In this document: one piece after another, positions 1 through 62,509 of the stretch
Layout: each line of letters opens with the position of its first letter
Numbering within the stretch: position 1 is the stretch's first letter
IMG/VR virus record: IMGVR_UViG_3300010399_000001
Coordinates: 51,047 to 115,046 of that record
Strand: one strand, 5' to 3'
Source: a virus
Length of the DNA stretch: 64,000 nt
Notes under the pieces: model-generated
Told to the model about the DNA's origin: nothing
Databases searched by the model: none
What the model saw: the letters and a program-made list of their open reading frames with translations, nothing else
Position numbers and translations under genes: made by a program

Positions 1-496
1 CGGCCTCTCGCGCCAGGCCGCGCTCATTCCGGCCATAGACGCGCTGAGACTTCTTCTTGGCTAATGCCCTTAGCCCATTGGCTAGGACCTCTAGCGCTTC
101 GGACTTGCGGCTTGCGGGGCGGCAGCAGCCGTCGCAGCCGTGGACCTGCCAGACATCGCGCCTGTCGTACCGCGCGAGCCAGTCCAGAGAGTCCGGGTCG
201 GGATGACCCACCCCGTGCGGGCAGATGCGCTCGCTCAGGGTCAGCTTCATCCCGTTGCGTACCACCTGGCGATCCATGCGGTGAACCAGCGGCCAGTGGT
301 TCATGTGGTGATTGGAGGGATTGTGGATGCAGCATCGCTGCCCCGCGCAGACCGAGGGGCTGTGGGTGTGCAGGACCGGACGACTATGGATCTCCTGATC
401 CGGACCATCCTTGCCGAGGATGGCGCTGATTTGATAGTCGTCGAAGATCATTGCATTGGCGATCCTGATGCCATCCCATGAACCGGACATGCTCAC
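1..496 (-). CDS. Cys/His-rich hypothetical phage protein, runs off the window start (not in the ORF track)
   Basis: Open frame from GTG 496 / ATG 490 to base 1: ...CAGQRCCIHNPSNHHMNHWP...ERICPHGVGHPDPD...HGCDGCC; GTGA overlap with the upstream stop. Confidence 0.7.
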   Translation of the reverse strand, partial: MSMSGSWDGIRIANAMIFDDYQISAILGKDGPDQEIHSRPVLHTHSPSVCAGQRCCIHNPSNHHMNHWPLVHRMDRQVVRNGMKLTLSERICPHGVGHPDPDSLDWLARYDRRDVWQVHGCDGCCRPASRKSEALEVLANGLRALAKKKSQRVYGRNERGLAREA

Positions 497-1029
497 TGCC
501 TGCTCCCCTCCGCCCATCGGCGGACGTTGCCGAGGTGCTTATCGGTGATACCGGTGCGAGGACTGACCGGCTCGTAGAGGGTCGGCGCGATCATACGGTC
601 CCGCATTCCGGCCTCGGTCAGATCCATCGGGGTGAACTCGTCATCCAGCCATGCGTACGGGCGATGGCGGACATACTCCTCCACGCTCGGCCGCTTCCAG
701 ATCCGCAGGGGATCGCCCCGCTGCCACACGCACTCGATGGTCGGTAACTGCGGCAGACCCAGGATGGGGGCGATCAGCTTGTTTGCCAGATCGTTCCACG
801 CGGTAGCCCAGACTAGATCCACAACGTCGGTCAGCTCAAGAAGCTGCCTGCCGTGATCGGGATTGAGCCACACCCGGATGCCACCCTTGACCCACGGGCG
901 GCCGAGTGGATCGGTGAATGCCCCGCTGAGCAGGCGGTGCGTCTGGAATCCCGGCGGCCTGCGGGTCGGCTTGGCCGCGTAGGGGTTGAGCGGACCGTCC
1001 ACATCGATCAGCAATAGCGGCTTGTTCAT
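493..1029 (-). CDS. HAD-superfamily protein, Swiss-Army-Knife RNA-repair-like HAD
   Basis: LLLIDVDGPLN (motif I), WATAW, WLDDE (motif IV); start reassigned to ATG 1029; directly downstream of Pnkp. Confidence 0.8.
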   Translation of the reverse strand: MNKPLLLIDVDGPLNPYAAKPTRRPPGFQTHRLLSGAFTDPLGRPWVKGGIRVWLNPDHGRQLLELTDVVDLVWATAWNDLANKLIAPILGLPQLPTIECVWQRGDPLRIWKRPSVEEYVRHRPYAWLDDEFTPMDLTEAGMRDRMIAPTLYEPVSPRTGITDKHLGNVRRWAEGSRQ

Positions 1030-1030
1030 C

Positions 1031-1993
1031 TCAGAAGTCTCCGTACTCGACCTGGTGGCAGGGCAGCTTGTAGACCAGCCGCCACAGATCGACCACCTGG
1101 TTGCGGTCGTCATAGACGGCCTCGACGTTGTAGCGGCCTCGGATGTTCTGCTCGAACAGCTGCGACTTGACCACGAAGTCCGGCCGCCTGTCCCCAGTGG
1201 GGCGCATGTGCAGGTCGCTGTACTTGATGTTGTGGGCTCGCAGCCACGCCTCGGTCTGCCTGCGGTACTCCTCCTGGCGGCCGGACAGAAGGATGATCTT
1301 GATCTCGCCGTCGACGTACGGGTAGATGTCGATCAGATTGGCAACTGCCTCGTTCAGGCTGTCGGTCTCCAGCTCCTCCAGGTCGTAGGGACCCCTATCC
1401 GCATGCTTCGCCAGGGTGCCGTCGATATCGAACAGCACGCACCAGGGCAGATCATCGTCGATAACGCAGGGCTGAACTGGGCGGATCAGGTCACGCCACT
1501 CGTTCATCCACTCATCGGTCAGCTTCCAGCCGTCCTTGCGGGTGGACTGATGGCGCTCCCACATACCCCGGATGACCGACTCGCCCACTCGCTCCCCATC
1601 GCGCCGCCCGGCGTCCACGGCGATGCACTCCTCGACCGTCATATCAGTCAGGTCGTGAACCCGGAAGATCACATTGCGGGTGGAGAGGGTCGTGCGGTAC
1701 CGATTGGGCAGCTTGTAGCCCATGTGGGTGTTGTCGATCACCACGTCGTATCCGGCGTCCACCGCGCTCATGACGCCGCGCAGCATGGCCTTCTGAACCA
1801 CCTTCTCGATGGCGTCATCCCATCTGGGGATGCTCATCATCCGGCGGTAGTCGTCCAGATTGAAGCGCATGGCCGAGATGCTGCGAGCGTACGTGCTCTT
1901 GCCAGAGCCGGGCAGGCCGTGCATCACATGGATCACCACCTCCTTACTGGATGGATCGTGACGCGGATCAGCCGCGAGATCGTAGACGCGCAT
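1031..1993 (-). CDS. pseT: Polynucleotide 5'-kinase/3'-phosphatase (T4 Pnkp-like)
   Basis: N-terminal P-loop GLPGSGKST plus IDNT; C-terminal HAD FDIDGTLA, SGR, RRPDFVVK, YDDRNQVV. Confidence 0.93.
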   Translation of the reverse strand: MRVYDLAADPRHDPSSKEVVIHVMHGLPGSGKSTYARSISAMRFNLDDYRRMMSIPRWDDAIEKVVQKAMLRGVMSAVDAGYDVVIDNTHMGYKLPNRYRTTLSTRNVIFRVHDLTDMTVEECIAVDAGRRDGERVGESVIRGMWERHQSTRKDGWKLTDEWMNEWRDLIRPVQPCVIDDDLPWCVLFDIDGTLAKHADRGPYDLEELETDSLNEAVANLIDIYPYVDGEIKIILLSGRQEEYRRQTEAWLRAHNIKYSDLHMRPTGDRRPDFVVKSQLFEQNIRGRYNVEAVYDDRNQVVDLWRLVYKLPCHQVEYGDF

Positions 1994-2042
1994 AGGTGTC
2001 TCCCGTCAGATGCAAGCGCTAGAGCGCTCCTAGCTTTATATA

Positions 2043-2056
2043 GAGTATTGTAGCAT
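2043..2056 (-). promoter_or_regulatory. Extended -10 promoter (TGCTACAAT) for pnkp; copy of a recurring phage motif
   Basis: Reverse complement ATGCTACAATACTC; identical copy at 59683-59696. Confidence 0.65.
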
Positions 2057-2081
2057 GTGCTTTAGATGAAGCTTGGATGTG

Positions 2082-2121
2082 CAGCTGCCCCGCTCTCAGG
2101 CCTGCGAGAGCGGGGCAGCTG
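2082..2121 (-). terminator. GC-rich hairpin after the Ro60 gene
   Basis: cagctgccccgctctc ... gagagcggggcagctg inverted repeat about 10 nt past the stop. Confidence 0.7.
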
Positions 2122-2132
2122 TATCAGCTCTG

Positions 2133-3797
2133 TTAGAAAGGCCAGCTACCATCACCGGCAGACAGCGAGGCCAGCATCGTGAACACCTTGTCGGAGAACC
2201 CGCCGATCTCGTACCGGTTCGGCTTGCTCGTGTCGATGCTGGATGCACCGTAACCCGAGGTGTTGATGCCGAACATCGGCACGCGGTCCGGAATGGCCTC
2301 CGACACGCTCATACCGCGCACCTTGCCGATCGCATCGTAGTAGCCGACCGAACCACCACCGGGGTAGTGGAACGCCTGCATGTCCGAGACGATGACCACC
2401 CGATCATGACCGGAGTAGCTGGCCTTGAGGGCGGCGACCGTCTCGGTACCGTGACCGACCGAGCCGACGCGCTTGCTGAATCCCTCGATGTCGCGCAGCA
2501 GGCTGCCGCCGTTCTTGAGCGGGTACTGGAAGACTCCGTTGGCGAAGCCGACCAGGTCCACATTCTTCGGACCGCACTTACGCGCGATCGCCACGCCGAT
2601 CAGAGCGCCGATATCGACATGACGGATGCTCGACTTGGCCGAGACGTTGCTGTGCATCGATCCGGAGGTGTCTACCAGGACCAGGGTGCGGCCCGGCAGG
2701 TTGGGGATGTTGGCGCATGCGTGACCCAGCGCCTCCTCCAGCGGCTGACCCCAGCGCAGCGAGTTGAGCGAGCGGTAAGCCGACAGGAACCGGTACGGGA
2801 ACTGGCGGGACTTGGCCACCTGAGCCGGGTCGCTGATGCGCGAGGCGACCTTCTCGTAGACCTCCTTGCCAAGCTTGGCCTCATCGAAGTTGCGCAGGTT
2901 GCGCAGCAGCGCCATGTAACCCATCGACGGGATGATCGCCTCCCAGGCGATGCGATCCATCGGGCCCTGGAGCCAGCCGGACAGCGCCTCCCAGGTGATG
3001 CCAGCCTCACGCAGCCGCTCCGCTGCACCGGAAGCCTTGACAAAGCTCCGGCGCTCAGCGAGGGGGAGGGACAGCAGCTCCTTGCGCTTGCGCAGCATCG
3101 TCAGCGACTCGGGGATCTCCTTGCCGCGCCCGTGCCTCTCGTCGATGATGTGCTCGAACAGGTCCCCCTGCTCGGGCGTGACGAATGCGGCGTTGAACCG
3201 GTCGACAGGGTGCACCATCTCGATCACGTCGGCGAAGCGCACACTCTTGTCCGGCGAGTCGTACTTGGAGTACGAGTACTCGCTGTAGAGGCGGCGCACC
3301 GCATCACCGGTACCGCGCTTGATCGAGATCGGGATGCGGTTGCGGCCATAGTTGGCGATCCAGTAGGCCAGCAGCTCCCCCGGCTCGTCGGCGCGAGAGC
3401 ACGCCAGGGAGATCAGGCGGCGGTTGATGCCGACCGGCACATCGTTGCGGATATCGGTCGGAGCCATGAGCGTGCGGGTACGCACCGCCTCGGCGGCGAT
3501 GACGATAGACGCGGTGCGCATGTTGGCCTCGTTGCGCAGCCACGGGATGAAGCCCAGCAGCCACTGCGGGTCCTCGCGCGCAACGGCGGCGGCCAGCTCC
3601 TTCAGGCGCTTGGCCTGGTCGCTCTTGGACTCGTAGAACTTGTCCTCGCCCATGTAGGTGACGGCCAGGATGAACAGGTCGCTCTTGGCGTCACGCTTGA
3701 ACGCCGCCCCACTCTCGAAGGTGGTGGTCTTCTCCCCCGTGGTGCGCACCGGCCCGAGGGTCGCAGTGCCACCCGAACGCTTGTTGAATCCAGACAT
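2133..3797 (-). CDS. rsr: Ro60/Rsr TROVE-domain RNA-binding protein with C-terminal vWA domain
   Basis: TROVE motifs (FYES, LRNEANMR, KYD, TWE, MGYMALLRNLRN, SRQFPYRFLSAY); vWA MIDAS DTSGSM, GT, VSDMQ. Confidence 0.95.
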   Translation of the reverse strand: MSGFNKRSGGTATLGPVRTTGEKTTTFESGAAFKRDAKSDLFILAVTYMGEDKFYESKSDQAKRLKELAAAVAREDPQWLLGFIPWLRNEANMRTASIVIAAEAVRTRTLMAPTDIRNDVPVGINRRLISLACSRADEPGELLAYWIANYGRNRIPISIKRGTGDAVRRLYSEYSYSKYDSPDKSVRFADVIEMVHPVDRFNAAFVTPEQGDLFEHIIDERHGRGKEIPESLTMLRKRKELLSLPLAERRSFVKASGAAERLREAGITWEALSGWLQGPMDRIAWEAIIPSMGYMALLRNLRNFDEAKLGKEVYEKVASRISDPAQVAKSRQFPYRFLSAYRSLNSLRWGQPLEEALGHACANIPNLPGRTLVLVDTSGSMHSNVSAKSSIRHVDIGALIGVAIARKCGPKNVDLVGFANGVFQYPLKNGGSLLRDIEGFSKRVGSVGHGTETVAALKASYSGHDRVVIVSDMQAFHYPGGGSVGYYDAIGKVRGMSVSEAIPDRVPMFGINTSGYGASSIDTSKPNRYEIGGFSDKVFTMLASLSAGDGSWPF

Positions 3798-3798
3798 G

Positions 3799-3827
3799 AA
3801 AAAACCCCTCTCGTCTTGACGGAGGGG
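3799..3827 (-). terminator. Intrinsic-terminator-like hairpin that sequesters the rsr Shine-Dalgarno
   Basis: Minus strand CCCCTC-CGTC-AA-GACG-A-GAGGGG-TTTTTT-C-ATG(rsr). Confidence 0.65.
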
Positions 3828-3834
3828 AAAGGCA

Positions 3835-3987
3835 TGGTAGCGCCCGAGATCAGAAGTCGGTGGCGGTGTTTTCAGTCTTATGCTCTACCTGACTGAGCTA
3901 CCCCACCCGAAGGCGGGGGCAGGATTCGAACCTGCGACCGTAAGATTAGCAATGAAGTATCCGTCACCTGCGCTTCGGGCGCTGCCA
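3835..3987 (-). ncRNA. yrlA: Y RNA unit 1, YrlA-type (circularly permuted tRNA-like domain)
   Basis: CCGAAGCGCAG...; T arm GCAGG-UUCGAAU-CCUGC, acceptor CCCCGCC-UUCG-GGUGGGG, D arm GCUC-AGUCAGGUA-GAGC; ...UGAUCUCGG; adjacent to rsr. Confidence 0.9.
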
Positions 3988-3994
3988 AAACCTT

Positions 3995-4081
3995 TCCCGA
4001 GATCAGTGTGAATGGCGGTATTATGCCTCGAACTACCATGTGAAGGTTATTGAGAAGTAACCGTCATTCTGCGCTTCGGGA
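3995..4081 (-). ncRNA. Y RNA unit 2 (short; hairpin with a tRNA-Val-like 7-nt loop)
   Basis: Same scaffold; insert ACC-UUCACAU-GGU in an imperfect hairpin. Confidence 0.8.
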
Positions 4082-4094
4082 TGAAGCCTTTGGT

Positions 4095-4204
4095 CCCTCC
4101 GAGATCAAGATGGCGATGGAGAGCGGGACTTGAACCCGCAGAATTCCGTTGCTTAGACAGAATCATTCAACCAATGAAGTAACCATCACCTGCGCTTCGG
4201 AGGG
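4095..4204 (-). ncRNA. Y RNA unit 3 (D-like arm, anticodon-like arm and T arm in normal tRNA order)
   Basis: CAUU-GGUUG-AAUG, AUUCUGU-CUAAGCA-ACGGAAU, GCGGG-UUCAAGU-CCCGC inside the scaffold. Confidence 0.82.
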
Positions 4205-4217
4205 TGAAGCAGTAGAT

Positions 4218-4370
4218 ATGGACATCCCCGAGATCGAGTCGACCAAGGTAACGTTAGGCGCTTTAGGCCACTAAGCTACCCCCGGATGAGCCCAGGGGGC
4301 AGGATTCGAACCTGCGATCTCCCGCTCCCAATGCGAAGTAACCCTATGTCTGCGCTTCGGGAATGTCCAT
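4218..4370 (-). ncRNA. yrlA: Y RNA unit 4, YrlA-type permuted tRNA-like domain
   Basis: T arm GCAGG-UUCGAAU-CCUGC, capped acceptor CCCCUGG/CCGGGGG, D arm GCUU-AGUGGCCUA-AAGC; terminal stem atggacat/atgtccat. Confidence 0.88.
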
Positions 4371-4382
4371 AACAAAGCAGGG

Positions 4383-4530
4383 GATGCGGTCCCGAGATCA
4401 ATTCGGCTGGGAGGTGTTTAACGTGCTGCCATTGCACCACCGGCCCAGGAGTGGACCGGACAGGATTCGAACCTGCATCTCTCCATTAGAAGTGAAGTAA
4501 CCCCTTATGCCTGCGCTTCGGGGCCGCATC
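4383..4530 (-). ncRNA. yrlA: Y RNA unit 5, YrlA-type permuted tRNA-like domain
   Basis: T arm GCAGG-UUCGAAU-CCUGU, acceptor CCGGUCC/GGGCCGG, D arm GUGC-AAUGGCA-GCAC; terminal stem gatgcgg/ccgcatc. Confidence 0.88.
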
Positions 4531-4559
4531 TTCTCATTCTCTATTCAGTTGTGAAAAGC

Positions 4560-4692
4560 ATCCCGAGATCAAGCCGGTGAACGAAAGCGCATTGGACCAC
4601 TCTGCCACGACCTGCCTGCACTAGTCAGACAGGCGCTGGGATTCGAACCCAGGTTCTCTGTGAGAAGTAACGCTCAACCTTCGCTTCGGGAT
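4560..4692 (-). ncRNA. yrlA: Y RNA unit 6, YrlA-type permuted tRNA-like domain with a long acceptor stem
   Basis: T arm CUGGG-UUCGAAU-CCCAG, extended stem CCUGUCUG/CAGGCAGG, Ser/Leu-like D arm GCAGAGUGGUCCAAUGC. Confidence 0.85.
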
Positions 4693-4703
4693 ATGAAGTT
4701 TGA

Positions 4704-4784
4704 CAGCTCCGAGATCAAGTCGATGCCAGGCGTTGGTGTCTAATTTACAGTTAGAAGTAACCCGGCTTCTTCGCTTCGGAACTG
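4704..4784 (-). ncRNA. Y RNA unit 7 (first transcribed; carries a tRNA-Tyr-like anticodon stem-loop)
   Basis: Scaffold plus UCUAA-CUGUAAA-UUAGA (5-bp stem, 7-nt loop CU-GUA-AA). Confidence 0.82.
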
Positions 4785-4789
4785 AGACT

Positions 4790-4818
4790 AAGCTACCGTG
4801 CTCATCGGCTAAGTGCAA
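4790..4818 (-). promoter_or_regulatory. Sigma70/HrdB-type promoter of the Y RNA-rsr operon
   Basis: TTGCAC-N17-TAGCTT on the minus strand; predicted start about 4784, the 5' end of unit 7. Confidence 0.75.
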
Positions 4819-4821
4819 GTC

Positions 4822-5601: not shown

Positions 5602-5665
5602 GAGGACCCATCCTTTCGAAGCGCGGCGGACCGATGCGTACACCGGTCCGCCGCAAAGCCGGTGC

Positions 5666-6526: not shown

Positions 6527-6716
6527 GTCATGCCTTTCTAGTGATGCTCTCGGCAAGCTCAGCATGTCAATCCCTGAGCATGTGAGCATCGTAGCATAAT
6601 GAATATCACCGGGCAAACATCTGAGCGCATCTTTATCTCTAGCTATTGATATCGCAAGGTGTGCGCTATGCGCGCAATGTGCTACGCTGCTCTCAGCGCT
6701 CCCGCTCATGCTTCCC

Positions 6717-6889: not shown

Positions 6890-6935
6890 CTGCATGTAGG
6901 CTACAATGCTCATAGCGATCGGAGAGGAGGTCTCC

Positions 6936-7532
6936 ATGTTCCACCCACTATCCCAATTCGGCTCCGTGGTCGGTGTCGACTGCGACGAGATCACTGTCGC
7001 AACCGATGCAGCACTACATCCCGGTCGCGGGGTTCAAGGGCTGGCATTCCTGGCCAGCAATGGCAAGTACGGTCTCGCCCTGCGCGCCATCAACCCGAGA
7101 GATGGGTCCGATCGCACCACCGTGGCGGAACTCAAGGCCATCTCCTACGCCCTGGAGAAGCTGAGCAAGACTGCGCGCATCACGATCCTGAGCGACTCGC
7201 GCAATGCGTTGCGGATGATCGAGCGCTGGATATCCGGCGAAGAGGTCTACCCAGACGGTTACCACGCGGGTATCCGCGAGAACGGTGACCTGCCACGGCT
7301 GGTGGAGATGCGCGCGCTGATCCTGCGCGACCCTTCTCGTCTGACCCTGATCTGGCAGCAGGGGCATGAAGGGCACCCGCTCAATGAGTTTGCGGACTCG
7401 GCAGCAAAGCTGGCGCTGCGTACCGGCAAGGACGCGTCGCGCCTGGATGTGAAGACCCTGCCGAAGATCTGGGCCGCGACGCGCCTAGCCGATTGGCGCG
7501 CGCTACGCTCTGGAGCATGCCGAGCCGCGTAA
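6936..7532 (+). CDS. rnhA: Ribonuclease HI-like protein
   Basis: ATDAA, AELKAI, ILSDS, WQQGHEGHPLNEFADSAA (D-E-D-D plus His). Confidence 0.88.
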   Translation: MFHPLSQFGSVVGVDCDEITVATDAALHPGRGVQGLAFLASNGKYGLALRAINPRDGSDRTTVAELKAISYALEKLSKTARITILSDSRNALRMIERWISGEEVYPDGYHAGIRENGDLPRLVEMRALILRDPSRLTLIWQQGHEGHPLNEFADSAAKLALRTGKDASRLDVKTLPKIWAATRLADWRALRSGACRAA

Positions 7533-7786: not shown

Positions 7787-7792
7787 GGCAGG

Positions 7793-7798
7793 TAGCAT
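7793..7798 (+). promoter_or_regulatory. -10 box for probable leaderless transcription of the deazaguanine operon
   Basis: TAGCAT followed 6 nt later by ATG 7805. Confidence 0.5.
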
Positions 7799-7804
7799 GA
7801 GCCC

Positions 7805-8413
7805 ATGGCTACCTTCCTTGGGTTCGAGACTCTCAAGCTCGACGAACTGATTCCCTTCCCCGGCAATGCGCGTCGCGGTGACATCGACGGCATCCGCTCC
7901 TCGGTGCGCGCTCACGGCCAGTACCGCTCCCTGGTCGTTAGGCGCACTCCTGGTGGGGATGTGGTGCTCGCTGGCAACCACACGCTGCGCGCCCTGATCG
8001 CCGAAGGATTCACCGAGGCGCGCTGCGAGGTCATCGAGTGCAGCGAGGCTGACGCTATCAAGATCAACGTCGGAGACAACGGCTGGGGCGACAAGGCGAC
8101 CAATGACGAGAGCGCGCTGGCCGACCTGCTGGAGCTGCTGAACGGTGACTTTGAGGGCACCAGCTACACCCAGCAGGACTTCGAGGACATGCGCGGGCTG
8201 TGGGATGCGGATGAGAACTCCACGCCCGATCTGGACAAGCTGGCGGACGAGCTGGGAGATCCGGTCGACTCGGATCTGTGGCCCACGCTTCGCTTCAAGG
8301 TCCCCCCGCAGGTGCGCGACGACTTCTATGACCTGACGAACAATTGCGCCAATCCGAATGACGACAACAATCGGTTCATGCACCTGATCCAGAAGGTTCG
8401 GAGTGCAGAGTGA
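7805..8413 (+). CDS. ParB-like N-terminal domain protein leading the dpd cluster
   Basis: L.PFPGNARRGD...I..S...HGQYR.LVV....VLAGNHTLRA...DN. Confidence 0.85.
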   Translation: MATFLGFETLKLDELIPFPGNARRGDIDGIRSSVRAHGQYRSLVVRRTPGGDVVLAGNHTLRALIAEGFTEARCEVIECSEADAIKINVGDNGWGDKATNDESALADLLELLNGDFEGTSYTQQDFEDMRGLWDADENSTPDLDKLADELGDPVDSDLWPTLRFKVPPQVRDDFYDLTNNCANPNDDNNRFMHLIQKVRSAE

Positions 8414-9519
8414 CCTTCAGGTTCCTAGTCTCGTTCCACTATCACGAGAAGACGGACCTACAGGCGATCGTCGATGCCTACAACGGCCCATGCGAAGTGT
8501 TCGCCGACTCCGGCGCGTACTCCGCCGCCTCTCTCGGTGCGACGATCAAGCTCGCCGACTACGCCGCATGGCTCAAGGATTGGGAACACCTTCTGACCAT
8601 CAAGGCGACGCTGGATGTGATCGGGGACCCGCAGGCCACCGCCCGCAACACCCGCACGCTGGAGCGCCAGGGCATCAACGTGCTTCCCGTCTTCCATGTA
8701 GGCACCCCATGGGGCGAGCTGGAGAAGATGGTCAAGCAATACGACTATCTGGCCCTCGGGGGAATGGTCCCGCACAGCGGCAAGGCCGATGCGGTGATGC
8801 GCTGGCTGGTGAAGGCGTTCCAGGTGGCAAGGGAGACCGGCACCGTCTATCACGGCTTCGGTCAGACCAGACTGGAGACCATCAAGAAGCTGCCGTTCTA
8901 TTCGGTGGACTCCTCGGCATGGTCATCGGGGATGCGCTACGGCACGATCGTCCTATGGGATGAGAAGTCATCGAACTTCATCAAGCTACAGGCGTCAGAC
9001 CCGGCTCAAGCGCGCCGCTATGCAGCTCTCTTGCGCTCTCATGGCGCTAATCCGTCCCTGGTCGCGAAGCCAGGCTTCGCGATGCTCTCGCGCCGTACGC
9101 CGGAGCAGTTCAGGCGTGAGGTCTCGATGATGCGCGGAGCGCCCGCCATCGCCTATATGCGCATGGGGGAGTATCTGGCGCGGCGTCACAAGGTGCCCAG
9201 GCCCGCGAGCCTCGGCGATGGAAAGAACGGTACTGCCGTCTATGTGGCGGACGCCGCGATGAGGCATCTGGTGGACGCCGCACCCATCGTCAATGACGTT
9301 GGAACAGCTGTGTACCTGGCTGCGGATACCGGCGGCAGCTGCATGAAGATGGCGCTGGACCATATGCGCGATACCGGTACGCATGTCTATCTGGCCAACA
9401 CGGCTGCCATCAATCTGCGCGGCGCGGCAATGGTGGCGGGTGGCGTAGACGCTAACGAGGTAGACAAGAGTGTCTACATCGACGAGATCCGAAAGAAGAA
9501 GGATGGGGAGAATGAGTAA
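8410..9519 (+). CDS. dpdA: DpdA-like 7-deazaguanine DNA transglycosylase (TGT fold)
   Basis: DSGAYS, LDVIGD, PVFH, LALGG, YHGFG, SVDSSAW; directly upstream of queCDE-folE. Confidence 0.8.
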   Translation: MTFRFLVSFHYHEKTDLQAIVDAYNGPCEVFADSGAYSAASLGATIKLADYAAWLKDWEHLLTIKATLDVIGDPQATARNTRTLERQGINVLPVFHVGTPWGELEKMVKQYDYLALGGMVPHSGKADAVMRWLVKAFQVARETGTVYHGFGQTRLETIKKLPFYSVDSSAWSSGMRYGTIVLWDEKSSNFIKLQASDPAQARRYAALLRSHGANPSLVAKPGFAMLSRRTPEQFRREVSMMRGAPAIAYMRMGEYLARRHKVPRPASLGDGKNGTAVYVADAAMRHLVDAAPIVNDVGTAVYLAADTGGSCMKMALDHMRDTGTHVYLANTAAINLRGAAMVAGGVDANEVDKSVYIDEIRKKKDGENE

Positions 9520-10207
9520 GCCGCTTGCGGTGGTGTCCCTCTCGGGCGGGATGGACTCCACGACCCTGCTGGCCCACCTGCTGCAAGACAATGAGGTGCT
9601 GGCTCTATCGTTCGACTACGGACAGCGCCACCGCAAGGAGCTGGACGCGGCCAGGGATGTCTCGCAGTACTACGGCGTCGAGCATCACGTGATCGATCTG
9701 ACCTCGGTGGGCAAGCTGCTGACCGGCTCGGCTCTTACCGACAGCTCGGTAGAGGTTCCCGAGGGTCACTACGAGGCCGAGAACATGAAGGCCACCGTCG
9801 TGCCGAACCGCAACGCGATCATGGCCAGCATCGCCATCGGTATTGCCAGTTCGCGCAAGGCGAAGTTCGTGGCTCTCGGCATCCATGCCGGTGATCACGC
9901 GGTCTACCCGGACTGCCGGCCTGAGTTCGTCGAGGTGCTGCGGGAGCTGGCCTCTGTGGCGCTGGACGGCTTCCATGCCCCACGCATCGAGACTCCGTTC
10001 GTGCTGTGGTCCAAGACTGGCATTGCGCGTGAGGCTGGACGCCTCGGGGTCCCGATCGAGCGCACGTGGAGCTGCTACAAGGGTGGCGAGAAACACTGCG
10101 GCCGATGCGGTACCTGCGTCGAGCGCATCGAGGCGATGCGGGACGCAGACGTGGCAGATCTGACCGAATACGAAGATAAGGCGTTCGCCGAGGGGGTGCT
10201 GGCCTGA
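9512..10207 (+). CDS. queC: 7-cyano-7-deazaguanine synthase
   Basis: SGGMDS, FDYGQRH, VPNRN, YPDCRPEF, TWSCY, CGRCGTC. Confidence 0.97.
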   Translation: MSKPLAVVSLSGGMDSTTLLAHLLQDNEVLALSFDYGQRHRKELDAARDVSQYYGVEHHVIDLTSVGKLLTGSALTDSSVEVPEGHYEAENMKATVVPNRNAIMASIAIGIASSRKAKFVALGIHAGDHAVYPDCRPEFVEVLRELASVALDGFHAPRIETPFVLWSKTGIAREAGRLGVPIERTWSCYKGGEKHCGRCGTCVERIEAMRDADVADLTEYEDKAFAEGVLA

Positions 10208-10641
10208 TGTATGAGATCGCGGTACGGCATAACTTCGAGACCGCACATCGGCTACCGCACCTTGAGGGCAAGTGTCAGTCTCTCCACGGGCACTCCTGGT
10301 GGGCTGAGGTCACCGTTGCCGCACCTGTGCTGCGCGGCGGCATCCTAGTTGAGTTCGGACCGTTCAAGAAGGCCCTGCGCGAGTGGATCGACACCAACCT
10401 CGATCACGGTGCAATGCTCGGCTTCGATGATCCGCTGCTGCCGATCCTGCGCGGCCACGGCAGCAAGGTGTATGAGTTCACCCACTGGCCAACGGTTGAA
10501 GAGGTCGCATCCGAGATCGGCTTCAAGGCTCAGGAGATACTCACCACAATCACGCGCGCACCGGGAGCGGCGGTCATCCGCTGCGATGTGCAGGAGACCC
10601 ACGTCAACCGAGCATCTTGGACGCCGCCGCATGATGCCTGA
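10207..10641 (+). CDS. queD: 6-carboxy-5,6,7,8-tetrahydropterin synthase
   Basis: FETAHRL...KCQSLHGHSW, LDH, PTVE, ET. Confidence 0.95.
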   Translation: MYEIAVRHNFETAHRLPHLEGKCQSLHGHSWWAEVTVAAPVLRGGILVEFGPFKKALREWIDTNLDHGAMLGFDDPLLPILRGHGSKVYEFTHWPTVEEVASEIGFKAQEILTTITRAPGAAVIRCDVQETHVNRASWTPPHDA

Positions 10642-11338
10642 GAAGTCGCTGATGGTCAGCGAGGTATTCGGCCCCACCTTCCAGGGGGAGGGGCCGAGTA
10701 CCGGACGTAGGGCGGTATTCATCAGGCTAATGGGCTGCAATCTGACCTGCAAGTGGTGCGATACGCCGTACACCTGGGACGGCAAGAGGTTCGACCTGCG
10801 CGCCGAAGGCAAGCGGATGCAGGTCGCTCGGATCATCCGCAAGATCAGCGGTAAGCCGGAGCTGGCGGTTATCACCGGAGGCGAACCTCTGCTGCACCAG
10901 GAGCAGAGTGGCTGGATACCACTCCTGGATGAACTGGTCGCACATGGCCTGAAGATCGAGATCGAGACCAACGGTACCCAGCTACCCACGACGCAGACGG
11001 AGATGCGGGTGGCCCGCTTCAATGTCTCGCCGAAACTGGCGCACGCGGGCGACAAGGAAGATAAGCGCCTGAAGTACGACGTGCTGCGCGCGCTGGTGGT
11101 GACTGGAGCGGCGATCTTCAAGTTCGTCGCGCGCACCGCCTCCGATCTGGACCAGGTGGAGCGCATCGTAGAACGGGCTCAGATCCCTAACGAGCTAGTC
11201 TGGATCATGCCCGAGGGTACCGATGCCGAGACCCTGACCCGGGGCATCCAGACGCTAGCGCCGCTCGTCGTGACGCGCGGATGGAATCTCACTACGCGTC
11301 TGCATGTGATCGCGTATGGCGATAGAAGAGGTGTATAG
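10634..11338 (+). CDS. queE: 7-carboxy-7-deazaguanine synthase (radical SAM)
   Basis: TFQGEG, FIRLMGCNLTCKWCDT, ITGGEPLL, IETNGT, VSPKL. Confidence 0.96.
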   Translation: MPEKSLMVSEVFGPTFQGEGPSTGRRAVFIRLMGCNLTCKWCDTPYTWDGKRFDLRAEGKRMQVARIIRKISGKPELAVITGGEPLLHQEQSGWIPLLDELVAHGLKIEIETNGTQLPTTQTEMRVARFNVSPKLAHAGDKEDKRLKYDVLRALVVTGAAIFKFVARTASDLDQVERIVERAQIPNELVWIMPEGTDAETLTRGIQTLAPLVVTRGWNLTTRLHVIAYGDRRGV

Positions 11339-11914
11339 ATGACCGATACCGCTGCCGCTCAGGCTGGCGTGCGGGCGCTGCTGCTTGGCATCGGAGAGAA
11401 TCCGGACCGGCCTGGCCTGAAGGAGACTCCGCGCCGGGTGGCGAAGGCGCTTATCGACTTCACGACACCTACCGGTCCAAGTCCGCAGGAGCTTCTGGCC
11501 GTCACATTCAACGACGCCGATCCCGCACCGGACCAGATGATCACAGTAGGGCCGATCGAGTTCGCATCGCTCTGCGAGCATCACCTTCTACCATTCACCG
11601 GGCACGCGTATGTCGGCTACATCCCCGGCGCGGCCGGGGCGGTGGTGGGCCTGTCCAAGCTGGCACGCCTGGTGGACTGGTATGCGCACGGCCTCCAGAT
11701 CCAGGAGCGCCTTACCGCTCAGGTGACAGGGGCGATCGACAAGTACCTCGATACCCTCGGCTCGGCCTGCACGATCCACTCGTCGCATTCCTGCATGACC
11801 TCTCGCGGCGCTCACAAGCCTGGTGCGATCATGCGTACCACCTCTCTAACTGGAGCGTTCCGGGATCAGGATGCGACCAGGGCAGAGTTTCTAGCCCACA
11901 CGCGCTGCTGCTGA
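11339..11914 (+). CDS. folE: GTP cyclohydrolase I
   Basis: GENPDRPGLKETPRRVA, SLCEHHLLPF, GLSKLAR, QIQERLT, HSCM..RG. Confidence 0.97.
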   Translation: MTDTAAAQAGVRALLLGIGENPDRPGLKETPRRVAKALIDFTTPTGPSPQELLAVTFNDADPAPDQMITVGPIEFASLCEHHLLPFTGHAYVGYIPGAAGAVVGLSKLARLVDWYAHGLQIQERLTAQVTGAIDKYLDTLGSACTIHSSHSCMTSRGAHKPGAIMRTTSLTGAFRDQDATRAEFLAHTRCC

Positions 11915-12512: not shown

Positions 12513-12580
12513 GCCCCTGTCGCCCAATTGGCAGAGCATCCGGTGCACCGGAGATCGAGGTTCAAGTCCTCGCGGGGGCT
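12513..12580 (+). ncRNA. tRNA-like RNA lacking an anticodon loop (4-nt loop)
   Basis: Acceptor GCCCCUG/CGGGGGC, D loop AAUUGGCA, arm UCCGG-UGCA-CCGGA, T arm CGAGG-UUCAAGU-CCUCG; no CCA. Confidence 0.8.
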
Positions 12581-45828: not shown

Positions 45829-45896
45829 TGCGCCCATGAGGATTTGAACCTCAAACCTCCGGTAAACCGGTGCTCTGGCAGTTGAGCTACAGGCGC
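45829..45896 (-). ncRNA. tRNA-like RNA lacking an anticodon loop (4-nt loop)
   Basis: GCGCCUG/UGGGCGC acceptor, D arm GCUC-AACUGCCA-GAGC, CCGG-UUUA-CCGG, T arm UGAGG-UUCAAAU-CCUCA; hairpin 45789-45826 follows. Confidence 0.8.
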
Positions 45897-46967: not shown

Positions 46968-47043
46968 GGTGGCGGGGGCGGGATTTGAACCCGCGACTTG
47001 CGGGTTATGGGCCCGCCGAGCTACCTAGCTGCTCCACCCCGCT
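46968..47043 (-). tRNA. tRNA-Met(CAT), initiator-like
   Basis: Cloverleaf; 1:72 mismatch (A:C); three G-C pairs at the base of the anticodon stem; loop CCCAUAA (C33); ends ACC then G. Confidence 0.88.
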
Positions 47044-47244
47044 TTGACCAGGTGGTATTGCCACCCGCATCGTCAGCGCCAGCGTAGCATAGATCTCTTG
47101 GTGATCAACTCTTTCGCCGTTGATGGTGCAGCCGACCCGAAGACTGGTTATCAGGTCTTCAAGCTGAGCGATTCGCCGCTCCAGGAGCCTGATCGCTTCG
47201 GCGTCGTCCATGAGACCACCTTGGGTCGTGGAGGCTTGCCCCTT

Positions 47245-47348
47245 GTGGACCGTCCGGAGTCGAACCGGATACCCGAAGGTGGGGAATCCTAACCCCCTGA
47301 TCCGTTTGATCTTCGAACCTGCGCGCGGTGATCCGGTTCGGCGATCTA
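47245..47348 (-). ncRNA. Aberrant tRNA-like RNA with an expanded D region and a variable arm
   Basis: T arm UCCGG-UUCGACU-CCGGA, variable arm ACC-UUCG-GGU, arm GGGGG-UUAGGAU-UCCCC, acceptor UAGAUCG/CGGUCCA. Confidence 0.5.
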
Positions 47349-52485: not shown

Positions 52486-53052
52486 TTAGGTTCTAGTCAG
52501 TCTCGCCATCTCGTAACGGGAGAGATAGCCGCCAAGATCGCGATGCCAGAGCGCATCAGAGAGGGCATTGTGGATGGATGCCGACTTGTTGCGGATCATC
52601 GGTGCCCCGAGGCGCACGCGCTCCTGCTCCAGGTCGAAGGTGGTCATAGGCACCTGATCCGGCAGGTCGGCCATAGTACCGAACAGCTGGGCCAGCACGA
52701 CATGGTCGTAGGCCGGATACCAGGACCACAGCTGCGGGTTCGGGGTCTCCAGGGTGAACTGATAGACCTTCGCGCGGATGGTCTCGCGATTCCATACGCA
52801 CGCACCGTACTCGGCGTCGTCCTCGTCCCACTCGAACCAGCGAGGCATGTCGAACAGCGGCTCGTCGTGGATGATGATCGGTAGGTGCGGTAACACGTTC
52901 TGGCGCAGCCAGTCATGCCGCAGCGCCCGGCCTATCGCACCCTCGCCGTTGATGCAGTACAGCTCGCGGCCATCCTCGGCCACCATCCCGATCGAGATCA
53001 GATCGATGGTGGAGCCGTCCTCGATGAACTCGGTGTCGTAGTAGATGCGCAT
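52486..53052 (-). CDS. DEDDh 3'-5' exo(ribo)nuclease, Rv2179c-like
   Basis: YDTEFIEDG.TIDLISIG, AYDHV.L.QLFG.M..LP, HNALSDA. Confidence 0.88.
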   Translation of the reverse strand: MRIYYDTEFIEDGSTIDLISIGMVAEDGRELYCINGEGAIGRALRHDWLRQNVLPHLPIIIHDEPLFDMPRWFEWDEDDAEYGACVWNRETIRAKVYQFTLETPNPQLWSWYPAYDHVVLAQLFGTMADLPDQVPMTTFDLEQERVRLGAPMIRNKSASIHNALSDALWHRDLGGYLSRYEMARLTRT

Positions 53053-57775: not shown

Positions 57776-57946
57776 CTCGCGACCGGATGATGGGGCGCTA
57801 CTTCTCGCAGTGCCCCGGATGCCGCTCTCATCGCTCCAGCGGGCCCGATTGCGCGGGGGGCGGCCAGCTATCGCGAGGCCGCATCAGAGCGCGGGAGAAG
57901 CGCTCCTGGCGCGCTCTAGAGGGCATCTAGAGCAGCGCGCTTAGCG

Positions 57947-58019
57947 CTGGCCCGGCAGGGATCGAACCTGCGACGTTCCGGTTAACAGCCGGATGCTCTG
58001 CCATCTGAGCTACGAGCCA
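57947..58019 (-). tRNA. tRNA-Asn(GTT)
   Basis: Canonical cloverleaf UGGCUCG...UCCGG-CUGUUAA-CCGGA...GCAGG-UUCGAUC-CCUGC-CGGGCCA-G; CCA not encoded. Confidence 0.95.
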
Positions 58020-58129
58020 TTGGACTGCGGGCGAGCCTGGTACCAGACTGAACTTTCCTTGCGCCGATGGATCGCGTAGCCCTCGGCGTCGAGGGGTGTT
58101 GTATCCGCTTGGACCCGCAGATTGCTAGC

Positions 58130-61100: not shown

Positions 61101-61955
61101 CACGTCCAACCGTCACGGATCAGCCAGTGATCGGGCTGCGGAGGGGGTTTCCACCCGAAGGTGGTGATGGGAGAGTCAGTCTTCGCCCTGATGGGAACCA
61201 TCGGCATTCTCCTTGATCCACTTGAGCTTGGCCAGACCGCCGTCGTCGATGATCTGCTTGAGGATTTGGGCGACATGCTGCGCTTTGCGCTCGCTGCACT
61301 CGCAGTCGCAACCCTCGATCGCATAGGGAGAGTCGCAGCAGTTGCACTCCTCGTCGCAGGGGACCGAGTACTGCTTGCATGAGCACTGCCCGACCCTAGG
61401 CAAGATTCATCCCGAGGGGAGGGTGCTGGATGGGGTTACCGGCCTTGGCGTCGCGCACGGCGCGGATCGCGAACTGCTCGGCAACCTCATCACTGAGCGG
61501 CGCGGGGCGATCGGGATGATGACCCTTGCCGTAGAACAGGTCCAGATCGCCCTGATGGGCGCGCTTGAAGTACTCGGCCCACAGCCGGGTCTGGGCGATG
61601 TCTCGAAGATCATCGAAGCTACCGGTCATGACTCCTGCCTGATCTTGTCGGCGACCATGCGCAGCAGGTAGATGAGCTGATGGTCGTTATAGCACTGCGG
61701 ATCGCGCTCGATATTGGATGCCATGTACTCCAGGATCTCCGGGTTGCTGCGTCGGCGGATGTGCAGGGTCGTGGCGTGACCCTCACCGGCGATGATGGTG
61801 CTCTCGCGTAGGGCATCGGTGCGATCGAACGCATCGGACCACGCGGTAGGCATGGGCTCGGTCGGCATCCGATCATCGGGGGTGTAGGCCATCGGCTCAC
61901 CCATCGCCTGATGGAGGCGCTCGCAGATCGGGCACCAGATCACCTCGTCGCTCAT
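58130..61955 (-). other. Run of small minus-strand hypothetical ORFs (58130-58501, 58557-59063, 59064-59276, 59276-59473, 59480-59680, 59858-60139, 60189-60533, 60430-60768, ~60932-61200, 61176-61403, 61396-61629, 61626-61955)
   Basis: Tightly coupled short ORFs, many Cys-rich; typical early accessory region. Confidence 0.55.
59683..59696 (-). promoter_or_regulatory. Extended -10 promoter; leaderless transcript of ORF 59480-59680
   Basis: TGCTACAAT then 6 nt to ATG 59680. Confidence 0.65.
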
Positions 61956-62509
61956 TGCCTCTCCGCCAGCGTCGTCAGCAGCTTCTCCATGGCCATGCGC
62001 TTGTTCTCCATCTGCGACCCGCCGCCCTCGCCGATGGCCACAAGACCGGTCGGCAGATGGGTGATGCGCACCACGTTCTGCGTGGGCCGAGTGATGTTGC
62101 CCGCGACCCCGGCGGTGCGGAAGATCTCGATGCGCAGTTGATCCGGGGGTAGTTCGATGTCGTGGATGCTCGGCTCGCTGCGCGACGGGGCGCGCACCTG
62201 GATCTTGATGTCACCGACCCACTCACCCTGCGGGTCTACATCTATCCACGGACCCCAGTGCGGGGTGAAACCCGGAGTGCCATCGTCCACGTCATCCCAG
62301 ACGCGCACCTGGAAGCCTGATCGCTCGATCAGGGCCCGCAGGTCATCGGGCGAGATAGAGCGGCGCAGGTCACCGATGTAACCGGAGCGCAGGTCGCTGT
62401 AGGTGCCGTACAGGATCACCGATTCAAGGGTGCAGCCCTCAACGGCGTCGGCCACCAGATCATCCATGGCCGAGGACAGGGCGGCGAACGCCCGTTGGGC
62501 CGGGGTCAT
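61952..62509 (-). CDS. Protein with a C-terminal class I release factor (RF-1) domain lacking GGQ
   Basis: LRIEIFRTAGVAGNITRPTQNVVRITHLPTGLV......SQMENKRMAMEKL matches the RF domain 3 pattern; GGQ replaced by AGN. Confidence 0.8.
   Translation of the reverse strand: MTPAQRAFAALSSAMDDLVADAVEGCTLESVILYGTYSDLRSGYIGDLRRSISPDDLRALIERSGFQVRVWDDVDDGTPGFTPHWGPWIDVDPQGEWVGDIKIQVRAPSRSEPSIHDIELPPDQLRIEIFRTAGVAGNITRPTQNVVRITHLPTGLVAIGEGGGSQMENKRMAMEKLLTTLAERQ

What the first reader, a model, noticed from the sequence alone, without database searches (positions are those of the whole stretch)
493..62509. Genome-wide theme: a tRNA-mimicry and translation-protection toolkit
Independent elements converge on tRNA biology: seven Y RNAs with tRNA parts plus Ro60, Pnkp and HAD, two anticodon-less tRNAs, a D-arm-expanded tRNA-like RNA, a C33 initiator tRNA, tRNA-Asn(GUU) and a GGQ-less RF domain. 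Inference: the phage meets tRNA- or ribosome-targeting abortive defences with decoy, repair and replacement strategies together.
Basis: inference. Interest (0 to 1): 0.7.

Follow-up and report, generated by a model that had tools for sequence, protein, structure and literature searches.

The report
Phage Ro60/Y-RNA module plus unlinked tRNA oddities
A 115-kb phage of actinomycete type carries a real, enlarged Ro60/Y-RNA locus with RNA end-healing enzymes, and separately some odd tRNA-like genes and a catalytically disabled release-factor domain, but these parts do not travel together in related phages, so a single "toolkit" is unproven.

Summary
Eight of the nine listed element types are in the sequence. 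These are seven Y RNAs, Ro60, Pnkp, a HAD phosphatase, two tRNA-Asn-derived RNAs with a 4-nt loop in place of the anticodon loop, an initiator-type tRNA-Met with C33, tRNA-Asn(GUU), and an RF-1 domain with GGQ replaced by AGN. The "D-arm-expanded tRNA-like RNA" was not confirmed.

Only one coherent module is supported: Y-RNA array, then Ro60, with a HAD phosphatase nearby. The nearest complete relative (about 50% protein identity) has HAD, nine Y RNAs and Ro60, with recognisably matching paralogues.

The rest assorts independently.
- Full-length Pnkp is in 3 of 50 Ro60-bearing viral records, against about 4% of all phages.
- RF-1 domains are in 2 of 50, both with GGQ, and in different records from Pnkp.
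- The nearest relative lacks Pnkp, the RF-like gene and the anticodon-less RNAs.
- I found no RtcB or Rnl2-type RNA ligase in the phage; the Rnl1 test was uninformative.

The idea of decoy, repair and replacement against tRNA-targeting defences is already published for phages. It is plausible here but untested.

This scan has reported Ro60-linked Y-RNA arrays on many other phage genomes. Verdict: an ordinary-to-interesting new member of a known kind. The unexplained parts are the anticodon-less tRNA-like RNAs, the GGQ-less RF domain and anticodon-loop-like Y-RNA hairpins.

The parts
493..1029 (-). HAD-family phosphatase (DVDGP and DD motifs), last gene of the cluster
   Evidence: HAD_SAK_2 26.3 bits, below the 27.5 cut-off. 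Motifs read. Homologues lie within 6 kb of Ro60 in 3 of 83 viral loci. The G002 homologue scores 30.0 bits.
1031..1927 (-). Polynucleotide 5'-kinase/3'-phosphatase (Pnkp)
   Evidence: HAD_PNKP 158 bits and AAA_33 47 bits. phrog_505 255 bits. Walker A GLPGSGKST and DIDGT motifs.
2133..3797 (-). Ro60/Rsr orthologue (TROVE plus vWA with a DxSxS site)
   Evidence: TROVE 54 bits. phrog_850 172 bits. D376, S378 and S380 are invariant in A1. 58% identity to Catenulispora Rsr.
3800..3828 (-). G+C-rich hairpin followed by a U run, between the last Y RNA and the Ro60 start codon (terminator-like)
   Evidence: Read directly. The scanner did not list it, probably because the loop exceeds its limit.
3838..3983 (-). 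Y RNA unit 7: handle plus YrlA-type permuted tRNA-like domain (T arm, closed acceptor, D arm)
   Evidence: Rfam YrlA 50.2 bits over the full model. Fold. Matches unit 9 of G002.
3991..4084 (-). Y RNA unit 6: handle with a short non-tRNA interior
4093..4205 (-). Y RNA unit 5: handle plus non-permuted tRNA-like body (hairpin, 7-nt-loop arm, T arm)
   Evidence: tRNA model 19.4 bits. Matches unit 4 of G002.
4222..4365 (-). Y RNA unit 4: YrlA-type
   Evidence: Rfam YrlA 27.9 bits. Matches G002 unit 6.
4386..4526 (-). Y RNA unit 3: YrlA-type, with a V hairpin whose loop is CUUCUAA
   Evidence: Rfam YrlA 25.4 bits and tRNA 30.6 bits. Matches G002 unit 7. Loop.
4557..4694 (-). Y RNA unit 2: handle plus T arm, closed stem and D-like arm
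4703..4784 (-). Y RNA unit 1: handle plus one hairpin with loop CUGUAAA (the tRNA-Tyr GUA anticodon loop)
   Evidence: The same loop sits on a covarying stem in G002 unit 1.
12513..12580 (+). TL1: tRNA-Asn-derived tRNA-like RNA with anticodon arm UCCGG-UGCA-CCGGA
   Evidence: Rfam tRNA 39.2 bits. Not called by ARAGORN. Fold z = -2.5. Aligned to tRNA-Asn.
45829..45896 (-). TL2: tRNA-Asn-derived tRNA-like RNA with CCGG-UUUA-CCGG, followed by a strong hairpin
   Evidence: Rfam tRNA 53.6 bits. Fold z = -2.6, or -5.75 with the hairpin. Best phage matches are tRNA-Asn genes of Gordonia and Mycobacterium phages.
46968..47043 (-). Initiator-type tRNA-Met(CAU) with C33 and an A1:C72 mismatch
   Evidence: ARAGORN and Rfam 57.8 bits. 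All 11 distinct CAU tRNAs in related loci have U33.
47240..47345 (-). Isolated T-arm-like hairpin; the claimed D-arm-expanded tRNA-like RNA is not confirmed
   Evidence: T arm found. No tRNA match. Fold z = -0.45.
57946..58019 (-). tRNA-Asn(GUU), canonical
   Evidence: ARAGORN and Rfam 64.7 bits.
61952..62509 (-). 185-aa protein: unknown N-terminal part plus an RF-1 (GGQ) domain in which GGQ reads AGN
   Evidence: RF-1 37.5 bits. Alignment to RF2. Homologue P0002 has AGS.

Best explanation
The window holds one coherent functional module and several unlinked accessories, not one co-inherited toolkit.

**The module.** It is an enlarged Ro60/Y-RNA ribonucleoprotein locus.
- Seven paralogous YrlA-type Y RNAs are probably cut from one transcript that mostly ends at a hairpin just before the Ro60 gene.
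- Each Y RNA keeps the same Ro60-binding handle and carries a different tRNA-like cargo.
- By analogy with bacterial Rsr, the Ro60 ring binds the handle. The cargo then engages tRNA-recognising proteins or tethers an exoribonuclease for structured or damaged RNA. This step is inferred, not shown here.
- Pnkp and the HAD phosphatase, encoded directly behind Ro60, would heal 5'-OH and 3'-phosphate or cyclic-phosphate RNA ends. Sealing would need a host ligase. This step is also inferred.

**The accessories.** These are the C33 initiator tRNA, tRNA-Asn, two anticodon-less tRNA-Asn derivatives and the GGQ-less RF-domain protein.
- They are separate, individually acquired or evolved items that touch translation.
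- Some may help against tRNA-targeting defences.
- Their presence together in this genome is not evidence of joint function.
For: **The locus is real and ordered**
- Gene order and motifs are shown.
- The handle helix covaries.

**The Y RNAs match a widespread family**
- A 36-nt handle model hits almost only the Ro60 strand just upstream of Ro60. It gave 216 hits in the window and 83 viral loci, and 100 hits (99 on the Ro60 strand) in 40 actinomycete loci.
- By my reading of those tables, loci usually carry 2-5 copies, and 6-9 only in this phage and four other records. Three of those share its terminase at 44-53% identity.

**The array is conserved in a distant relative**
- G002 has HAD, then nine units, then Ro60.
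- Units pair up between the two phages: u1/U1, u5/U4, u3/U7, u4/U6 and u7/U9.

**The other elements assort independently**
- This is shown.
- Relatives carry 7-30 ordinary tRNAs where this phage has 3.

**Background**
Against: - No expression, binding or activity data exist for any element.
- Pnkp sits next to Ro60 here and in a few other records: L068, and possibly G034 across the record ends. A functional link is therefore possible even though it is rare.
- The two anticodon-less RNAs differ by compensatory changes at pairs 3:70 and 49:65. That argues they are maintained, so they may belong to a tRNA-directed strategy after all.
- The co-occurrence counts come from 50 records. Many are fragments, and the counts are not corrected for phylogeny.
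Confidence: 0.5

Rival explanations
1. This is the first reader's reading: all elements form one integrated counter-defence. Y RNAs and anticodon-less tRNA-like RNAs would act as decoys. Pnkp and HAD (with Ro60) would repair RNA. The C33 initiator tRNA and tRNA-Asn would be nuclease-resistant replacements. The GGQ-less RF domain would protect the ribosome. All would be aimed at tRNA- or ribosome-targeting abortive-infection toxins.
For: **Published precedent for phages**
- tRNA provisioning, RNA repair, a TROVE protein with a tRNA-like partner, and ribosome rescue are described in PMC7824862.
- Anticodon-loop mutant phage tRNAs are described in PMC10264068.

**Evidence in this genome and its relatives**
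- The canonical tRNAs are Asp(GUC) and Asn(GUU), and Y RNA unit 1 shows a Tyr(GUA) loop. I know these GUN anticodons as targets of colicin E5-type nucleases.
- The Tyr-like loop is conserved with a compensatory stem change in G002.
- Y-RNA V hairpins are enriched for anticodon-loop-like loops.
- TL1 and TL2 keep their helices through compensatory changes.
- C33 is absent from all 11 related CAU tRNAs.
Against: - The elements assort independently.
- No RtcB or Rnl2-type RNA ligase was found. The Rnl1 test was uninformative.
- The anticodon-like V loops are equally a feature of cellular actinomycete Y RNAs, so they are not a phage-specific weapon.
- No defence system or host is known.
- One listed element is not real.
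Confidence: 0.2
2. This is the relic reading. The phage descends from tRNA-rich ancestors and is losing its tRNA set. On this view TL1, TL2, the T-arm fragment and the odd tRNA-like genes outside the window are decaying tRNA genes. The C33 tRNA and the GGQ-less RF domain would be degenerating genes with little or no function.
For: - Relatives carry 7-30 tRNAs, often just upstream of Ro60, against 3 here.
- Truncated tRNA remnants occur in relatives (G027).
- TL1 has a mismatch in its D stem, and TL2 lacks the GG of the D loop.
- No other viral contig has a tRNA-like RNA matching the shared anticodon-arm pattern. All 13 pattern hits were chance matches without a T arm.
Against: - Both TLs lost exactly three bases at the anticodon loop and re-closed the arm.
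- Acceptor and T stems stay fully paired, with two double compensatory changes between the copies.
- They still score 39-54 bits as tRNA.
- The GGQ loss is shared by a 72%-identical homologue (AGS) with the rest of the domain conserved.
Confidence: 0.15
3. This is the processing-signal reading, for TL1 and TL2 only. The anticodon-less tRNA-like RNAs would serve as RNase P and RNase Z cleavage sites. They would punctuate long phage transcripts or set mRNA ends, as mascRNA does for MALAT1 and tRNAs do in mitochondria. They would not be decoys.
For: - Both lie in short gaps inside same-strand gene runs.
- TL2 is followed by a strong hairpin and then the next start codon. The tRNA-Met gene ends about 20 nt before the next start codon.
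- Acceptor and T arms, which I know as the parts recognised by RNase P and RNase Z, are the parts kept intact.
- TL1 also gives a weak match to the mascRNA family (28.4 bits).
Against: - There are no transcript data.
- Ordinary tRNAs would do the same job, so this does not explain the loss of the anticodon.
- It is not conserved in the relatives examined.
Confidence: 0.15

Closest known systems
Bacterial Rsr (Ro60) with YrlA/YrlB Y RNAs (M. smegmatis, S. Typhimurium; Chen et al. 2014, PMC4201824; Rfam RF02553)
   Same: - The protein has a TROVE domain and a vWA part.
- The RNAs lie directly upstream on the same strand.
- The 5' handle has the CGAAG motif.
- The permuted tRNA-like domain runs T arm, closed acceptor, D arm.
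- Several paralogous Y RNAs occur per locus.
- Unit 3 shares the CUUCUAA V loop implied by the M. smegmatis YrlA probe.
   Different: - There are seven units instead of the 2-5 seen in actinomycete loci.
- No unit reaches the Rfam gathering score; the best is 50.2 bits against 69.
- Two units have no tRNA-like domain and one has a non-permuted one.
- The locus sits in a phage and is linked to Pnkp and HAD.
Salmonella rsr-yrlBA-rtcBA RNA repair operon (Hughes et al. 2020, PMC7790460)
   Same: Ro60 and Y RNAs are encoded together with RNA end-processing enzymes.
   Different: - Here the partner is a kinase-phosphatase (Pnkp) plus a HAD phosphatase, not the RtcB ligase and RtcA cyclase.
- RtcB is absent from the phage.
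- The 5'-phosphate and 3'-OH ends that Pnkp makes are not RtcB substrates (from my own knowledge).
T4 Pnkp plus Rnl1 repair of PrrC-cut tRNA-Lys, and mycobacteriophage Pnkp enzymes
   Same: It is a bifunctional 5'-kinase/3'-phosphatase with the same motifs. It is 36-39% identical to annotated Pnkp of Mycobacterium, Gordonia and Streptomyces phages.
   Different: - No Rnl2-type ligase or RtcB is encoded. The Rnl1 search was uninformative because its control was silent.
- No target nuclease is known.
Phage tRNAs with anticodon-loop changes that evade host tRNases (van den Berg et al. 2023, PMC10264068)
   Same: A phage-encoded tRNA differs from the norm inside the anticodon loop (C33 in an initiator-type tRNA).
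   Different: - That paper reports that phages generally avoid encoding tRNA-fMet where it is the target.
- No nuclease that depends on U33 has been identified for this host.
- The link is untested.
Small phage RF-1 domain / ArfB-like proteins and class I release factors
   Same: The C-terminal 70 residues align to RF2 domain 3 (E about 6e-11). RF-1 domain genes occur in 85 phage records.
   Different: - GGQ is replaced by AGN here and by AGS in the one close homologue.
- The N-terminal 110 residues are of unknown type.
- There is no codon-recognition domain and no ArfB-type tail.
- The RF-1 genes of two other Ro60-bearing phages keep GGQ.
Phage counter-defence framework of tRNAs, RNA repair and ribosome rescue (Iyer et al. 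2021, PMC7824862; Burroughs & Aravind 2016, cited there)
   Different: That work covers jumbo phages and reports that kinase and phosphatase genes go with ATP-grasp ligases. Here no such ligase was found.

Membership tests
Ro60/Rsr (TROVE) | TROVE domain above the Pfam cut-off | tested here: met
   54.2 bits against a cut-off of 23.
Ro60/Rsr (TROVE) | C-terminal vWA part with a DxSxS metal site | tested here: met
   D376, S378 and S380 are invariant in the alignment with three phage Ro proteins.
Ro60/Rsr (TROVE) | Binds Y RNA on its outer surface | not testable with these tools
   This needs immunoprecipitation or a structure.
YrlA (Rfam RF02553) | Score at or above the gathering score (69 bits) | tested here: not met
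   The best unit scores 50.2 bits; others score 27.9 and 25.4. The same is true of all 50 related viral records.
YrlA (Rfam RF02553) | Permuted tRNA-like domain (T arm, closed acceptor stem, D arm) | tested here: met
   Units 3, 4 and 7 match the YrlA model in this region. Unit 2 shows the same layout by eye and fold. Units 1, 5 and 6 differ.
YrlA (Rfam RF02553) | 5' handle motif GNCGAAN0-1G, and a position next to rsr on the same strand | tested here: met
   CCGAAG is in all seven units, though the first G of the motif is C or U. All units lie within 1 kb upstream of Ro60.
Pnkp (T4 PseT type) | P-loop kinase domain plus HAD phosphatase domain with DxDxT | tested here: met
   GLPGSGKST and DIDGT motifs. 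HAD_PNKP 158 bits. phrog_505 255 bits.
Pnkp-ligase tRNA repair pathway | A partner RNA ligase (Rnl1, Rnl2 or RtcB) in the same genome | tested here: not met
   There is no RtcB or Rnl2-type domain in the 115-kb genome. The Rnl1 search was empty, but so was its control.
HAD_SAK_2 (HAD domain of RNA repair proteins) | Pfam score above the cut-off (27.5 bits) | tested here: not met
   26.3 bits. The homologue in relative G002 scores 30.0. The DVDG and DD motifs are present.
Canonical tRNA (for TL1, TL2) | Seven-base anticodon loop on a 5-bp stem | tested here: not met
   The loops are 4 nt, UGCA and UUUA. ARAGORN calls neither.
Canonical tRNA (for TL1, TL2) | Acceptor, D and T arms that fit the tRNA model | tested here: met
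   Rfam tRNA 53.6 and 39.2 bits against a cut-off of 29.
Bacterial initiator tRNA | Three G:C pairs at 29-31:39-41, no Watson-Crick pair at 1:72, and A11:U24 | tested here: met
   Read from the alignment. The 1:72 mismatch is A:C rather than the usual C:A.
Bacterial initiator tRNA | U33 | tested here: not met
   It has C33. All 11 related CAU tRNAs have U33.
Class I release factor / ArfB | GGQ motif | tested here: not met
   AGN is aligned to the GGQ of RF2. AGS is in the homologue.
Class I release factor / ArfB | RF-1 domain above the Pfam cut-off | tested here: met
   37.5 bits against a cut-off of 35.

The most novel reading that the evidence does not exclude
The variable cargo of these Y RNAs, together with the two anticodon-less tRNA-Asn derivatives, would form a displayed library of tRNA parts. 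This includes the hairpins with anticodon-loop-like YU-NNN-RN loops, such as the conserved Tyr(GUA) loop. Ro60 particles would use the library to capture or divert tRNA-directed enzymes, whether anticodon nucleases or modification enzymes. Phage lineages with 6-9 Y RNAs would have expanded the library under pressure from host tRNA-targeting immunity.
Probability: 0.12. Interest if true: 0.8.

Novelty: new member of a known kind. Interest (0 to 1): 0.4.

Why it matters
**If the bundle worked as one system**
It would show a phage combining RNA decoys, end repair and replacement tRNAs against host attacks on translation.

**What the evidence actually gives**
- Ro60/Y-RNA loci in actinomycete-type phages are conserved and can expand to 7-9 distinct paralogues that are kept across about 50% protein divergence.
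- The linkage to Pnkp is rare.
- Counting tRNA-related oddities in one genome does not establish a joint function.

**Three parts that deserve study on their own**
- The anticodon-less tRNA-like RNAs that appear to be maintained.
- A release-factor domain that has lost GGQ in two homologues.
- The anticodon-loop-like V hairpins of YrlA-type RNAs.

Tried and rejected
- **Megablast of 10 kb against phage records:** no match.
- **The search for related loci with the Ro60 protein alone:** found nothing. An alignment of four Ro proteins was needed.
- **A regular expression for the window's handle:** it did not transfer to other loci, because their handle sequence differs.
- **Counting Y RNAs with the Rfam YrlA model:** this overcounts in tRNA-rich phages. 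In L055, 8 of 9 hits are junctions of tandem tRNAs. I therefore built a handle-only model.
- **Pattern scan of viral contigs for the shared anticodon-less arm:** 13 hits, all without a T arm, so chance matches.
- **Structure prediction of the RF-like protein:** mean pLDDT 62, with the N-terminal part below 65. It was too poor for a fold search.
- **Atlas look-up for the RF-like protein:** it gave only RF-1 domain clusters.
- **Search for a hidden ligase near the cluster:**
  - The 453-aa ORF downstream resembles actinomycete HTH proteins.
  - The 168-aa, 259-aa and 271-aa neighbours have no informative match.
- **The Rnl1 family search:** its control was silent, so it is uninformative.
- **The preQ0/TGT-like genes as part of a tRNA theme:** rejected. 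They form a DpdA-type DNA modification cluster.
Full report
**What the window is.** The window is bases 51047-115046 of a 115,046-bp viral record with 123-bp terminal repeats and about 62% G+C. No close relative is in the phage collection. Protein matches point to phages of actinomycetes:
- The terminase is about 40% identical to diverse phages.
- Ro60 is about 40% identical to Streptomyces and Gordonia phage proteins.
- Ro60 is up to 58% identical to Rsr of Catenulispora, Streptacidiphilus and Streptomyces.

**Checking the list: the Ro60 cluster.** On the minus strand the order is seven small RNA units (3838-4784), a G+C-rich hairpin with a U run, Ro60 (2133-3797), Pnkp (1031-1927) and a HAD phosphatase (493-1029).
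- Every unit has the same handle: a terminal stem, CCGAAGCG(C/A)AG, a second helix and GGUUACUUC on the 5' side, and UGAUCUCGG plus the stem on the 3' side.
- The terminal helix is 94% paired. Five pairs change on both sides, and none of 500 shuffles reaches this.
- Rfam's YrlA model matches units 7, 4 and 3, all below its gathering score. Unit 2 has the same layout by eye and fold.
- Unit 5 has a non-permuted tRNA-like body. Units 1 and 6 have short interiors.
- Pnkp has intact kinase and phosphatase motifs and matches phrog_505 at 255 bits.
- The HAD gene is just under the Pfam cut-off for HAD_SAK_2 (26.3 against 27.5 bits).

**Checking the list: elements elsewhere in the window.**
- ARAGORN finds only tRNA-Met(CAU) and tRNA-Asn(GUU).
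- The Met tRNA has the initiator marks: three G:C pairs in the anticodon stem, A11:U24 and a mismatched 1:72 pair. It also has C33. All 11 distinct CAU tRNAs in related loci have U33.
- Two further sequences score as tRNA (53.6 and 39.2 bits) but have a 4-nt loop where the anticodon loop should be.
- Their nearest phage matches are tRNA-Asn genes, and they align with this phage's own tRNA-Asn.
- The RF-1 domain protein aligns to RF2 domain 3 with AGN in place of GGQ. Its one close homologue has AGS.
- The 'D-arm-expanded tRNA-like RNA' could only be the stretch at about 47240-47345. It has a T-arm hairpin, no tRNA match even in a very small search, and a fold no better than shuffled sequence. 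I count it as not confirmed.

**Which parts belong together.** I fetched 80 viral loci and 80 bacterial loci that encode relatives of this Ro60.

*Y RNAs and Ro60.*
- A 36-nt sequence model of the 5' handle was built from 22 units of four loci.
- It hits almost only the Ro60 strand just upstream of Ro60. It gave 216 hits in the viral set, and 100 hits in 40 actinomycete loci with 99 on the Ro60 strand.
- The RNA family and its link to Ro60 are therefore general.
- By my reading of those tables, loci usually hold 2-5 copies. Six or more occur only in this phage (7), G002 (9), G022, G048 and one other record. The three named records share this phage's terminase at 44-53% identity.

*The nearest complete relative, G002.*
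- G002 is 111 kb, with terminase 53% and Ro60 52% identical.
- Its order is HAD (30.0 bits, above the cut-off), nine units, then Ro60.
- Units can be matched between the two phages by their interiors. The first and last units are in the same places.
- Unit 1 of both carries the loop CUGUAAA, which is the tRNA-Tyr(GUA) anticodon loop. The two stems differ by a compensatory U:A to A:U change.
- This is good evidence that the array and its diversity are under selection.

*The other elements do not follow.*
- Within 6 kb of Ro60, Pnkp is found in 1 of 83 viral loci and HAD in 3. Neither is found in 80 actinomycete loci.
- Over whole records, full-length Pnkp is in 3 of 50 Ro60-bearing records. That compares with 2159 of 50,697 phage records overall.
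- RF-1 domains are in 2 of the 50, in different records from Pnkp, and both keep GGQ.
- In cultured phages the genera with Ro60 and those with RF-1 homologues do not overlap.
- G002 and four other terminase relatives lack full-length Pnkp and the RF-like gene. I saw no anticodon-less tRNA-like RNA in the five records scanned for tRNA: four terminase relatives plus G034.
- Those relatives carry 7-25 ordinary tRNAs, and another Ro60-bearing record has 30, where this phage has three.
- The phage has no RtcB or Rnl2-type ligase. The Rnl1 search was uninformative.

**How it most likely works.**

*Shown here:* a canonical Ro60 gene preceded by seven conserved-handle RNAs with different tRNA-like cargo, conserved as a set in a distant relative.

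*From the literature:*
- Bacterial Rsr binds the Y RNA handle. In Deinococcus and Salmonella, Y RNA tethers Rsr to PNPase for degradation of structured RNA.
- YrlA is recognised by tRNA enzymes.
- M. smegmatis YrlA is cut by RNase P and receives CCA (PMC4201824).

*Inferred:*
- The phage makes Ro60 particles whose specificity is set by which Y RNA is bound.
- Pnkp and HAD process damaged RNA ends nearby.
- Sealing, if it happens, uses a host enzyme.

I hold this at about 0.5.

**The integrated toolkit reading.** It is plausible, and its parts are already in print for phages (PMC7824862, PMC10264068). The distribution data do not support joint inheritance, and nothing here tests function. I give it 0.2.

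**The anticodon-less RNAs.**
- Both lost three bases at the loop.
- They are each other's closest relatives in the T arm.
- They differ by double compensatory changes at pairs 3:70 and 49:65.
- This favours maintained structure over decay.
- It does not say whether they are decoys, processing signals inside operons, or something else.

**Novelty.**
- The theme is a known idea applied to one more genome.
- The Ro60/YrlA pairing in phages has been known since 2014.
- This scan has itself reported Ro60-linked arrays of handle-sharing RNAs on many other phage genomes.
- What is less ordinary is the size and conserved paralogue set of the array, the two anticodon-less tRNA-Asn derivatives, and the GGQ-less RF domain.
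- One observation made in passing may also be unusual. The hairpin after ACUUC, which is the 'V' arm of Chen et al., often has a loop with the anticodon-loop signature. This holds in phages and actinomycetes alike: 72 of 132 and 37 of 89 such hairpins, against 24 of 377 control hairpins.

**Limits.**
- Many viral records are fragments.
- The counts are not corrected for relatedness.
- The host is unknown.

Noticed in passing
window 7805-11914 (+): A cluster of a ParB-like protein, a DpdA-like transglycosylase (phrog_887/7068), QueC, QueD, QueE and GTP cyclohydrolase I. This is the gene set for 7-deazaguanine modification of phage DNA, not a tRNA function. TL1 lies about 600 bases downstream.
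   Followed up: partly
83 viral loci (L009-L091) and 80 bacterial loci (L142-L221), just upstream of Ro60; window units 1 and 3: Right after the conserved ACUUC, many Y RNA units have a 5-bp/7-nt hairpin whose loop fits the anticodon-loop pattern YU-NNN-RN. This holds for 72 of 132 viral and 37 of 89 cellular hairpins, against 24 of 377 at random positions. The commonest triplets are GUU, GCU, UCU, GGU and CAU. I found no mention of this in PMC4201824, which calls the hairpin the V (variable) arm.
   Followed up: partly
L013 4739-5950 (relative G002): This is an array of nine Y RNA units between a HAD_SAK_2 gene and Ro60, with a variant handle (CCCGGUGCC...AAUCUCGG). Several units correspond one-to-one to units of the window.
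   Followed up: yes
L055 1559-5931 and other tRNA-rich loci: The Rfam YrlA model gives sub-threshold hits at junctions between tandem tRNA genes (8 of 9 hits in L055). YrlA counts in tRNA-rich phages are therefore inflated.
   Followed up: yes
own genome 46975-47245, minus strand (3.8-4.1 kb before the window): After a normal tRNA-Asp come two odd tRNA-like elements. One has an acceptor stem and T arm but an unusual interior. The other has three T-arm-like hairpins. They were not analysed further.
   Followed up: no
relative G034 (L045), 124,744-bp record with terminal repeats: Ro60 lies at about 121.3-122.9 kb and a full-length Pnkp at 0.7-1.6 kb. The two would be about 2.5 kb apart if the record is circularly permuted. 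This record has no clear tRNA gene.
   Followed up: no
window 6936-7532 (+) and 52486-53052 (-): There are two separate RNase H-family genes in one phage genome.
   Followed up: no
own genome 28410-31833, minus strand (L094 8410-11833): This is a run of an AAA+ ATPase (501 aa) and two vWA-domain proteins, of unknown role.
   Followed up: no
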